Virus record (IMG/VR): IMGVR_UViG_3300028581_000010
DNA length: 64,000 nucleotides
Strand: one strand, 5' to 3'
Source: a virus
Lineage: Duplodnaviria > Caudoviricetes
Translations under genes and position numbers: made by a program
Shown here: positions 60,384 through 60,467 of the stretch, one piece after another
Position numbering within the stretch: the first letter of the stretch is position 1
Layout of the letters: the number at the start of each line of letters is the position of its first letter
The notes under the pieces: model-generated
The model's database searches: none
What the model was told of the DNA's origin: nothing
What the model saw: the letters and a program-made list of their open reading frames with translations, nothing else

Positions 60384-60467
60384 CAGCGTCGCTAGGGGTC
60401 GAACCTAGAATGCCTAATAGGCTCTATCTCCAAAGGATAGTGTGTCTACCAATTTCACCACGACGCT
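60384..60467 (-). tRNA. long-variable-arm (class II) tRNA with UUG (Gln) anticodon; amino-acid identity uncertain
   Basis: AGCGTCG-TG-GTGAAATTGGTAGACAC-A-CTATC-CTTTGGA-GATAG-AGCCTATTAGGCATT-CTAGGTTCGACCCCTAG-CGACGCT-G. Confidence 0.85.

What the first reader, a model, noticed from the sequence alone, without database searches (positions are those of the whole stretch)
60384..60467. Class II (long variable arm) tRNA with a Gln UUG anticodon on a Leu-like body
Seen: a Leu-type D arm (GTGAAATTGGTAGACAC, A15-U48), a GCCT/AGGC variable stem, G37, anticodon TTG, an A1-U72 pair and discriminator G73. Established: bacterial long-arm tRNAs are Leu, Ser, Tyr or Sec. LeuRS needs A73; SerRS reads the long arm and ignores the anticodon; GlnRS-type identity uses a YUG anticodon, G73 and a weak 1-72 pair. 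Inference: either a tRNA-Leu(UAG) re-purposed as tRNA-Gln through changes at 35, 73 and 1-72, or a missense tRNA inserting Ser/Leu at CAA codons. Several structural genes here are very Gln-rich.
Basis: partly seen in the sequence, partly recalled or inferred. Interest (0 to 1): 0.7.

Follow-up and report, generated by a model that had tools for sequence, protein, structure and literature searches.

The report
Phage glutamine tRNA on leucine-type body
A lake-water jumbo phage carries an intact, conserved tRNA that reads the glutamine codon CAA and has glutamine-type ends, but its core is the long-armed shape normally reserved for leucine, serine and tyrosine tRNAs; it most likely still inserts glutamine.

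Summary
Window 60384-60467 (- strand) is a well-formed 84-nt tRNA. It has anticodon UUG, a 15-nt variable region with a 4-bp stem, a leucine-type D arm, A1-U72 and G73. The sequence is identical in independent lake-water assemblies, and no TAG variant was seen.

Three relatives in other metagenomes keep UUG and A1-U72. In the four sequences, 11 of 20 stem pairs show compensatory changes, so this is not a pseudogene.

Its identity-bearing parts match ordinary phage tRNA-Gln (weak 1-72 pair, G2-C71, C3-G70, G73, G10, U35, G36). They do not match tRNA-Leu (A73 in 24 of 24), tRNA-Ser (G1-C72, A3-U70) or tRNA-Tyr. In another phage, the long-armed and ordinary Gln tRNAs share the same acceptor stem and anticodon loop.

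Best reading (0.72): a Gln-accepting tRNA on a class II body that decodes CAA. Charging was not tested. Ser or Leu missense is unlikely but not excluded.

Why the body was swapped is unknown; escape from tRNA-cutting defences is a guess.

This scan has already noted long-armed Gln and other class I tRNAs in other phages. I found no paper describing them.

The parts
60384..60467 (-). Whole tRNA gene (84 nt, no encoded CCA): class II cloverleaf with anticodon UUG
   Evidence: ARAGORN. Infernal RF00005 50.7 bits, E=5.5e-9. Identical in L130 and in contigs of runs X5, X6 and X8.
60461..60467 (-). Acceptor stem 5' strand AGCGUCG (A1, G2, C3...)
   Evidence: alignment. A1-U72 is invariant in the four lineage members, while 5 of the 7 acceptor pairs show compensatory changes.
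60442..60458 (-). D arm GUGAAAUUGGUAGACAC (3-bp stem plus A13/A22; G10-C25; A14, A15, G18G19), leucine type
   Evidence: TGGTGAAATTGGTAGACACA is letter-for-letter the D arm of tRNA-Leu(UAA) in L011. The nearest non-Gln neighbours are tRNA-Leu.
60424..60440 (-). Anticodon arm CUAUC-CUUUGGA-GAUAG; anticodon U34 U35 G36 at 60433-60431; G37 at 60430
   Evidence: Four of 5 stem pairs covary; U33-U34-U35-G36 are invariant in relatives.
60409..60423 (-). Variable region of 15 nt: A, GCCU-AUU-AGGC hairpin, AUU (U48)
   Evidence: In the tRNA pool the length is within the Leu range (11-15) and Tyr range (11-16) and at the low end of Ser (mostly 14-20).
60392..60408 (-). T arm CUAGG-UUCGACC-CCUAG
   Evidence: two pairs covary.
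60384..60391 (-). Acceptor 3' strand CGACGCU and discriminator G73 (60384)
   Evidence: G73 with a weak 1-72 pair is the signature of class I tRNA-Gln in the pool (73 = G in 18 of 22; 1-72 never G-C).
61010..61038 (-). Candidate sigma-70-type promoter (TTGACA-17-TATATT) upstream of the HNH gene, tRNA-Lys and this tRNA
   Evidence: Consensus scan, 11 of 12 matches. This is a pattern match only; no expression data exist.

Best explanation
This is a working glutamine tRNA with a class II architecture. The parts that glutamine-charging enzymes read are of the tRNA-Gln type. These are the anticodon U34-U35-G36, the weak first pair A1-U72, G2-C71, discriminator G73 and G10-C25. The structural core (D arm, long variable arm, elbow) is of the tRNA-Leu type.

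It is probably transcribed with the neighbouring tRNAs of the - strand cluster, trimmed and given CCA by host enzymes. It would then be charged with glutamine by the host GlnRS, or by non-discriminating GluRS plus GatCAB if the host lacks GlnRS. It would read CAA, and by wobble some CAG. That fits a cluster made almost entirely of U34 tRNAs that supply A-ending codons.

Shown here: the gene is intact, reproducible, conserved with compensatory changes, and carries Gln-type rather than Leu-, Ser- or Tyr-type identity marks.

Inferred: the amino acid, expression, and the reason for the body swap. My guess for the reason is that a different core makes the tRNA a poor substrate for nucleases that cut ordinary tRNA-Gln. 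In other phages the long-armed copy sits beside an ordinary copy with the same anticodon, and this phage carries many tRNA-repair genes according to earlier notes.
For: 1. It is a real tRNA: 50.7 bits, E=5.5e-9, with perfect stems and all universal tertiary positions.

2. It is not an assembly error. It is identical in L130 and in contigs of three more runs.

3. It is a conserved lineage. L190/L174, L194 and L191 share the D arm, the UUG anticodon and A1-U72. All pair cells are paired, 11 of 20 pairs have changes on both sides, and 0 of 500 shuffles reach this.

4. Identity marks in a pool of 337 unique tRNAs:
- Class I Gln never has G1-C72 (U-A 11, A-U 6, mismatched 5), and position 73 is G in 18 of 22.
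- Leu has A73 in 24 of 24.
- Ser has G1-C72 in 21 of 24, G2-C71 in 24 of 24 and A3-U70 in 20 of 24.
- Tyr has G1-C72 and A73 in 6 of 6.
- Phage class II Gln tRNAs have a weak 1-72 pair in 12 of 13, against 3 of 54 for Leu, Ser and Tyr together (Fisher p = 9e-10). The sequences are not all independent; there are about six lineages.

5. The exact set A1-U72, G2-C71, C3-G70, G73 plus G37 occurs in an ordinary 75-nt tRNA-Gln(UUG) of L139. L208, a relative of this phage (ATPase 55% identical), has a class I Gln starting AGCCCCG.

6. In L145 the 85-nt class II and 75-nt class I Gln tRNAs share an identical acceptor stem (UGCCGAG/CUCGGUA), G73 and loop UUUUGAU. In L194 and L137 the two forms also share acceptor features, including U73 in L137.

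7. Literature precedent: an amber tRNA-Ser, a class II tRNA, switches to Gln identity after two acceptor base-pair changes. The GlnRS determinants are U35, G36, 10-25, the acceptor stem and position 73 (PMC9976931).

8. Codon logic: the cluster supplies Val UAC, Lys UUU, Thr UGU, Ala UGC, Pro UGG and Gln UUG. CAA makes up 38% of Gln codons.

9. The one CAA at a conserved column (ATPase residue 20) aligns with Gln in 73 of 117 homologues.
Against: - There are no charging or expression data of any kind.
- C3-G70 and G37 differ from the E. coli GlnRS set (G3-C70, A37).
- A1-U72 is not the U1-A72 pair that GatCAB and GluRS2 are reported to read, so the route would be uncertain in a host without GlnRS. 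The host is unknown.
- The two closest relatives (L190, L194) have U73, while the ordinary Gln tRNAs beside them have G73. Some Ser tRNAs of those same phages also have U73.
- A long variable arm with G73 or U73 has been read as a SerRS signature for allo-tRNAs (PMC5389517).
- In other phages the long-armed Gln tRNA duplicates the anticodon of an ordinary copy. That is odd if both do the same job.
- The closest syntenic relative found (L209) has tRNA-Lys directly followed by tRNA-His, with nothing corresponding to this tRNA.
- I could not see this phage's other tRNA island, so I do not know whether it has an ordinary tRNA-Gln.
Confidence: 0.72

Rival explanations
1. It is a missense tRNA charged by SerRS. 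The long arm plus G73 would be read by seryl-tRNA synthetase, which ignores the anticodon, so CAA would sometimes be read as serine.
For: - Long variable arm with G73. Relatives have U73, which also occurs in some Ser tRNAs of the same phages.
- Allo-tRNAs with a long V arm and G73 or U73 are read as Ser acceptors (PMC5389517).
- SerRS does not use the anticodon (PMC9976931).
- A long-armed copy beside an ordinary Gln copy would make sense if the two differ in amino acid.
Against: - G1-C72 (21 of 24) and A3-U70 (20 of 24) of the pool's Ser tRNAs are absent; A1-U72 is invariant in this lineage.
- The D arm is Leu-type, not Ser-type.
- The variable region is 15 nt here and only 10-14 nt in relatives, against mostly 14-20 nt for Ser.
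- In L145 the long-armed copy keeps the Gln acceptor stem and Gln anticodon loop exactly, which SerRS has no use for.
- CAA is 1.4% of all codons, so serine insertion would damage the phage's own proteins.
- No Ser enrichment was seen at CAA columns, but there were only 6.
Confidence: 0.08
2. It is a tRNA-Leu derivative still charged by LeuRS, so CAA is read as leucine, like the nematode nev-tRNAs.
For: - The D arm, A15-U48, G18G19 and the variable-arm size are Leu-type.
- nev-tRNAs show that class II tRNAs with foreign anticodons can be leucylated (PMC3333845).
- Contigs from cellular MAGs (L216, L224, L228) and one unplaced contig (L184) hold UUG-anticodon tRNAs with an intact Leu acceptor end.
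Against: - A73 is crucial for LeuRS (PMC9976931). It is kept in all 115 nev-tRNAs and in 24 of 24 Leu tRNAs of the pool.
- This tRNA has G73 and its relatives have G or U.
- Position 1-72 is A-U, not the usual G-C.
Confidence: 0.04
3. It has a non-decoding role. It would be a tRNA-shaped decoy or sponge for a host tRNA-directed nuclease or sensor, or a regulatory RNA, and would be charged poorly or not at all.
For: - Phage tRNAs are known to neutralise tRNA-cutting defences (PMC10264068, PMC11464382, PMC11555353).
- A defence that cuts the variable loop of tRNA-Tyr is known (PMC13096335).
- Earlier notes report C33 tRNAs and many RNA-repair genes in this phage.
- It is redundant with ordinary Gln copies in other phages.
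Against: - The anticodon UUG, U33 and purine 37 are invariant, and the acceptor end keeps Gln-type marks across diverged relatives. That points to selection for charging and decoding.
- The known counter-defence tRNAs are themselves working decoders.
Confidence: 0.08
4. It is a recently broken or neutral relic: a mutated tRNA-Leu(UAG) copy with no function.
For: - It is absent at the corresponding place in L209.
- A single change, A35 to U, turns a Leu(UAG) loop CUUAGGA into CUUUGGA, as seen in MAG contigs L216 and L224.
Against: - All stems are perfect and the tertiary positions are intact.
- It belongs to a lineage with compensatory changes and a fixed anticodon.
- The acceptor end is not that of a Leu tRNA.
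- It is identical in several samples.
Confidence: 0.05

Closest known systems
Ordinary (class I) bacterial and phage tRNA-Gln(UUG), for example those in L139, L208 and L145
   Same: Anticodon UUG, U33, weak first pair, G2-C71, G73 and G10-C25. L139's class I Gln has the same A1-U72/G2-C71/C3-G70/G73 set and G37.
   Different: This tRNA has a 15-nt variable region with a 4-bp hairpin instead of 4-5 nt. It also has a Leu-type D arm (3-bp stem, AAUUGGUAGA loop).
Bacterial and phage tRNA-Leu, for example L011 Leu(UAA) and L145 Leu(UAG)
   Same: The D arm is identical to L011's. A15-U48, G18G19, and the variable-arm size and style also match. These are the nearest non-Gln neighbours.
   Different: G73 instead of the A73 found in every Leu tRNA of the pool; A1-U72 instead of G1-C72; anticodon UUG.
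Engineered identity switches of class II amber suppressors to glutamine (tRNA-Ser amber with two acceptor pairs changed; PMC9976931, section on glutamine identity). From my own memory, the su+3 tRNA-Tyr mischarging mutants are a further case.
   Same: A long-armed tRNA becomes a GlnRS substrate when U35 is combined with a weakened 1-72 pair and suitable acceptor pairs.
   Different: Those are laboratory mutants with a CUA anticodon. This is a natural, conserved gene with the sense anticodon UUG.
Nematode nev-tRNAs (PMC3333845, PMC4300185)
   Same: Natural class II tRNAs derived from tRNA-Leu that carry anticodons of class I amino acids.
   Different: nev-tRNAs keep A73 and are charged with leucine. 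This tRNA has lost A73 and carries Gln marks. It comes from a phage, not a eukaryote.
Allo-tRNAs of bacteria and phages (PMC5389517)
   Same: Long V arm, G73 or U73, and unusual anticodons, found in metagenomes.
   Different: Allo-tRNAs have an 8/4 or 9/3 acceptor/T-stem layout and a tRNA-Sec-like D arm. This tRNA is a standard 7/5 with a Leu-type D arm.
Other long-armed tRNAs with class I anticodons noted earlier in this scan and seen here (family A in L142-L176, L168, L137/L146, L023 Gln(CUG) of 89 nt, L131 Thr(UGU) of 89 nt, L190 Asn of 94 nt)
   Same: The same design: a class I anticodon and identity marks on a class II body, in large phages, often beside an ordinary copy.
   Different: They are separate lineages with different sequences. 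This lineage has four known members and is marked by A1-U72 and the GGUAGACAC D arm.

Membership tests
tRNA (Rfam RF00005) | Cloverleaf scoring above the family's gathering score (29 bits) | tested here: met
   50.7 bits, E=5.5e-9, model 1-71 complete; ARAGORN also calls it.
Class II (long variable arm) tRNA | Variable region longer than 10 nt that forms a stem-loop | tested here: met
   15 nt with the GCCU/AGGC stem and AUU loop. Relatives have 10-14 nt.
tRNA-Gln (GlnRS identity set of E. coli, PMC9976931) | Anticodon with U35 and G36 (YUG) | tested here: met
   U34-U35-G36; invariant in relatives.
tRNA-Gln (GlnRS identity set of E. coli, PMC9976931) | Discriminator G73 with a weak or broken 1-72 pair | tested here: met
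   G73 and A1-U72. In the pool, class I Gln never has G1-C72 and has G73 in 18 of 22. The pair is A-U rather than the E. coli U-A.
tRNA-Gln (GlnRS identity set of E. coli, PMC9976931) | G2-C71 and G3-C70 | tested here: inconclusive
   G2-C71 is present, but position 3-70 is C-G. C3-G70 does occur in 8 of 22 class I Gln tRNAs of the pool, including L139 and L208.
tRNA-Gln (GlnRS identity set of E. coli, PMC9976931) | G10-C25 pair | tested here: met
   G10-C25 is present and invariant in the lineage.
tRNA-Gln (GlnRS identity set of E. coli, PMC9976931) | Aminoacylation with glutamine | not testable with these tools
   No biochemical or RNA data; no RNA run is listed.
tRNA-Gln | Class I architecture (4-5 nt variable loop), as in all described bacterial tRNA-Gln | tested here: not met
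   The variable region is 15 nt. This is the point of the finding.
tRNA-Leu | Discriminator A73 | tested here: not met
   G73. A73 is present in 24 of 24 Leu tRNAs of the pool and is crucial in E. coli.
tRNA-Leu | Leu-type core: A15-U48, G18G19, D-loop layout | tested here: met
   The D arm is identical to L011 tRNA-Leu(UAA); A15 and U48 are present.
tRNA-Ser | G1-C72, G2-C71 and usually A3-U70 | tested here: not met
   A1-U72 and C3-G70; only G2-C71 fits.
tRNA-Ser | Long variable arm of Ser size and orientation | tested here: inconclusive
   15 nt is at the low end of Ser in the pool (mostly 14-20). Relatives at 10-14 nt are mostly below it. Orientation is not testable here.
tRNA-Tyr (bacterial) | A73, G1-C72 and anticodon GUA | tested here: not met
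   G73, A1-U72 and UUG; only U35 is shared.
nev-tRNA-like Leu-charged missense tRNA | Leu identity (A73) kept on a foreign anticodon | tested here: not met
   G73. By contrast L184, L216 and L224 keep G1-C72 and A73; L228 keeps G1-C72 and its printed 3' end CGCGC-A-C suggests A73, but the script could not assign its discriminator.
allo-tRNA | 8/4 or 9/3 acceptor/T-stem layout | tested here: not met
   Standard 7-bp acceptor stem and 5-bp T stem.

The most novel reading that the evidence does not exclude
The long-armed tRNA is not a glutamine tRNA in practice. With its class II body and G73 it would be charged at least partly with serine (or leucine). The phage would then deliberately or conditionally mistranslate CAA, while an ordinary tRNA-Gln elsewhere in the genome supplies the standard reading.
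Probability: 0.1. Interest if true: 0.85.

Novelty: new variant of a known kind. Interest (0 to 1): 0.55.

Why it matters
Textbook bacterial tRNA biology reserves the long variable arm for Leu, Ser, Tyr and Sec. Here a natural, conserved tRNA carries glutamine-type identity marks on that body, and several unrelated phage lineages have built the same thing.

If it is charged with glutamine, three things follow:
- GlnRS, or the GluRS/GatCAB route, tolerates a class II core in nature.
- tRNA identity modules can be grafted between bodies.
- It raises a testable question: is the body swap a way to escape host enzymes that cut or sense ordinary tRNA-Gln? That would extend the current picture of phage tRNAs as counter-defence tools from anticodon-loop changes to whole-body changes.

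Such tRNAs are also natural starting points for orthogonal tRNA design.

If it were charged with Ser or Leu instead, it would be a phage-encoded sense-codon mistranslation device.

Tried and rejected
- **Close relatives in phage GenBank records:** none. Only short tRNA-Pro matches appeared.
- **IMG/VR patterns built from this tRNA's own variable arm, 5' half and 3' end**: only chance matches in coding DNA.
- **Whole genome:** none is held, and the records behind my loci cannot be searched.
- **Walk towards the phage's second tRNA/tmRNA island** (about 45 kb past the window's end, according to earlier notes): all available contigs stop near window-equivalent 78.2 kb. I therefore could not list this phage's Leu, Ser or ordinary Gln tRNAs.
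- **Expression:** no RNA holder is listed.
- **Thermodynamic folding alone:** it does not return the cloverleaf and gives z = -1.5. This is uninformative for a tRNA.
- **Codon reassignment test:** only 6 CAA codons fall in columns with at least 8 homologues, and a second large protein had almost no homologues. The test is therefore weak.
- **orf104 next to the tRNA:** no family match. Its homologues lie near other tRNAs in L133 and L206 and are not tied to this tRNA.
- **Assembly-error idea** (TAG misread as TTG): rejected.
- **Amber-suppressor or stop-recoding idea:** rejected, because the anticodon is a sense anticodon.

Full report
**The object**

ARAGORN finds ten tRNA genes in the window. 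Nine lie in a - strand cluster at 59.3-63.3 kb, interleaved with HNH endonuclease genes, an AAA ATPase and, further on, an Rnl1-type RNA ligase.

One of the nine is tRNA-Gln(ttg) at 60383-60467. Infernal's tRNA model matches 60384-60467 end to end with 50.7 bits and E=5.5e-9. The default gathering run did not list it, although 50.7 bits is above the family's gathering score of 29; only the 'evalue' run with laxer filters did.

Read on the - strand the gene is:
- AGCGUCG (positions 1-7), U8, G9
- D arm GUG-A-AAUUGGUAG-A-CAC, then A26
- anticodon arm CUAUC-CUUUGGA-GAUAG
- a 15-nt variable region: A, GCCU-AUU-AGGC, AUU
- T arm CUAGG-UUCGACC-CCUAG
- CGACGCU (66-72) and G73

Every stem pair is Watson-Crick, and the usual tertiary positions are in place. 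CCA is not encoded.

**Reality of the sequence**

A second assembly (L130) is 100% identical to the window over 12,853 nt, including the tRNA. Eleven lake-water metagenome runs of 2019 hold the stretch. Contigs from three runs not flagged as possible sources cover the tRNA with no differences.

There is no TAG variant at the anticodon. No RNA run is listed, so expression is untested.

**Relatives**

This phage has no close relative in the phage records. Its ATPase has at best 61% identical homologues.

A structure-aware DNA pattern (Leu-type D loop, YUUUG loop, long gap, T loop) found real class II tRNAs with a UUG anticodon in about 22 IMG/VR contigs. A narrower version found more in metagenomes.

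Three of these are clear homologues of this tRNA: L174/L190, L194 and L191. Aligned with the window's tRNA, all 79 pair cells form standard pairs. Eleven of 20 pairs show changes on both sides, and no shuffle or slid register comes near this.

Invariant features are the D arm, G10-C25, U33-U34-U35-G36 and the first pair A1-U72. The discriminator is G in the window and L191 and U in L190 and L194. This is the pattern of a functional tRNA lineage, not of decay.

**Leu-type core**

BLAST of the tRNA against phage records hits the 5' halves of annotated tRNA-Leu genes.

In that pool the nearest neighbours, after other class II Gln tRNAs, are tRNA-Leu genes. L011 tRNA-Leu(UAA) has the identical 20-nt D arm.

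The variable region (15 nt) falls in the Leu (11-15) and Tyr (11-16) ranges and at the low end of Ser (mostly 14-20). The relatives have 10-14 nt.

**Gln-type ends**

In the same pool:

| tRNA type | 1-72 pair | Other acceptor pairs | Position 73 |
|---|---|---|---|
| Class I Gln (22) | never G-C: U-A 11, A-U 6, mismatched 5 | | G in 18 |
| Leu (24) | mostly G-C | | A in 24 |
| Ser (24) | G-C in 21 | G2-C71 in 24, A3-U70 in 20 | |
| Tyr (6) | G-C in 6 | | A in 6 |

The window's tRNA has A1-U72, G2-C71, C3-G70 and G73. That exact set, together with G37, occurs in an ordinary 75-nt tRNA-Gln(UUG) of L139. A relative of this phage (L208, ATPase 55% identical) has an ordinary tRNA-Gln beginning AGCCCCG.

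Phage class II Gln tRNAs have a weak first pair in 12 of 13 cases, against 3 of 54 for Leu, Ser and Tyr (p = 9e-10). The sequences fall into about six lineages, so this is not 13 independent events.

The clearest case is L145. Its 85-nt class II and 75-nt class I Gln tRNAs have the same acceptor stem, the same G73 and the same anticodon loop, and they differ in the core. In L194 both forms start AGGGGU, and in L137 both have U73.

The published identity rules agree with this reading:
- GlnRS reads U35, G36, 10-25, the acceptor stem and position 73. A class II tRNA-Ser amber suppressor becomes a Gln acceptor after two acceptor-pair changes (PMC9976931).
- LeuRS needs A73.
- Bacterial tRNA-Ser keeps G1-C72 and G2-C71.

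**Contrast with cellular genomes**

The same kind of pattern, run over one genome for each of 185,579 species, found only four class II tRNAs with UUG.

Three of them (L216, L224, L228) come from metagenome-assembled genomes and keep G1-C72. L216 and L224 also have A73, and L228's 3' end suggests the same although its discriminator was not assigned. They look like tRNA-Leu(UAG) with one anticodon change. One unplaced metagenome contig (L184) is of the same kind.

The fourth is an Armatimonadota contig with four Gln tRNAs in a row (L225). It has U1-A72 and G73.

So the Gln-marked long-armed form is mainly a phage feature. The window's tRNA belongs to that form, not to the single-mutation form.

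**Codon use and reassignment**

In 74 ORFs of the window, Gln is 3.6% of codons and CAA is 38% of Gln codons. Only one ORF is Gln-rich.

The cluster's tRNAs are nearly all U34 species for A-ending codons, so a tRNA-Gln(UUG) fits the set.

A test of what CAA stands for was weak. Only six CAA codons fall in alignment columns with enough homologues. The one at a conserved column aligns with Gln in 73 of 117 homologues, and neither Leu nor Ser is enriched.

**What remains unexplained**

1. In every larger array that holds a class II Gln(UUG), an ordinary Gln(UUG) is also present (L145, L156, L158, L190, L194, L225).
2. I could not check this for the window's phage. Its second tRNA island lies beyond the DNA I could reach. 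Its relatives L131 and L208 carry an ordinary Gln(UUG) near a tmRNA/TerB region.
3. L209, the closest relative with the same gene order, has tRNA-Lys directly followed by tRNA-His, with no counterpart of this tRNA.
4. U73 in the two closest relatives differs from the G73 of their ordinary Gln tRNAs.

**A possible reason for a second, differently built copy**

One idea is protection from tRNA-directed nucleases. Phage tRNAs that escape such defences through anticodon-loop changes are documented (PMC10264068, PMC11464382, PMC11555353). A defence that cuts the variable loop of tRNA-Tyr is known (PMC13096335). Earlier notes of this scan report C33 tRNAs and a dense tRNA-repair gene set in this phage.

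This is inference only.

**Literature and earlier notes**

Seven full-text searches found no description of a long-armed tRNA-Gln in phages.

The nearest published cases differ from this tRNA:
- Nematode nev-tRNAs keep A73 and take Leu.
- Allo-tRNAs have an 8/4 or 9/3 layout.
- Laboratory suppressors have been switched to Gln identity.

This scan has already noted the same design in other phages. This finding is a further, separate lineage rather than a first sighting.

**Verdict**

The missense interpretation is unlikely but not excluded. The amino acid and the purpose of the body swap need experiments.

Noticed in passing
window 60569-60578: The last 10 nt (including the stop codon) of the HNH endonuclease ORF 60569-61003 (- strand) overlap the 5' end of tRNA-Lys (60506-60578). 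This resembles the HNH/tRNA-Val arrangement that earlier notes describe 1 kb away.
   Followed up: no
L145, L144, L150, L152, L154, L156, L158, L176 (IMG/VR contigs): A separate family of 85-nt class II tRNA-Gln(UUG) (UGCCGAG..., U1-A72, G73, CCA encoded). In seven of these eight arrays (not L145) it sits in the order Trp, Gln, Leu(UAG), Pro. In L145 its acceptor stem and anticodon loop are identical to those of the phage's own 75-nt tRNA-Gln.
   Followed up: partly
L190 (Ga0209835_1000113), 2506-8193: A 27-tRNA array in which three tRNA-Leu genes are only 77-78 nt (no long arm, A73 kept). tRNA-Asn(GUU) is 94 nt and one tRNA-Gln(UUG) is long-armed. The arms seem to be redistributed among isotypes.
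   Followed up: no
L131 2567-2655: A relative of this phage (ATPase 54% identical) has an 89-nt tRNA-Thr(UGU) with a long variable arm, next to a tmRNA gene and an ordinary tRNA-Gln(UUG).
   Followed up: no
L191 2097-2269: A member of this tRNA's lineage (A1-U72, G73) lies 16 nt after a 74-nt tRNA with anticodon CUA (amber suppressor). That hints the phage may read TAG as an amino acid.
   Followed up: no
L216 4512-4593, L224 76-159, L228 3-84, L184 7-98: Contigs of Zixibacteria, Sulfuricurvum and Saccharibacteria MAGs, plus one unplaced contig, hold class II tRNAs that keep G1-C72 (with A73 in L184, L216 and L224) but carry the anticodon UUG. They are either candidates for Leu insertion at CAA or mutated copies.
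   Followed up: no
L225 3076-3404 (Armatimonadota MAG, 1.36-Mb contig): Four tRNA-Gln genes in a row (84, 76, 74 and 80 nt). Two have enlarged variable regions, and all have a weak first pair and G73.
   Followed up: no
window 61010-61038 (- strand): A near-consensus sigma-70-type promoter (TTGACA-17-TATATT) lies just upstream of the HNH gene that precedes tRNA-Lys and the long-armed tRNA-Gln.
   Followed up: no
window, all ORFs: ATA makes up 39% of Ile codons and AGA 22% of Arg codons. In the two protein families examined, A-ending codons (CAA, GAA, AAA) sit at less conserved alignment columns than their G-ending partners.
   Followed up: partly
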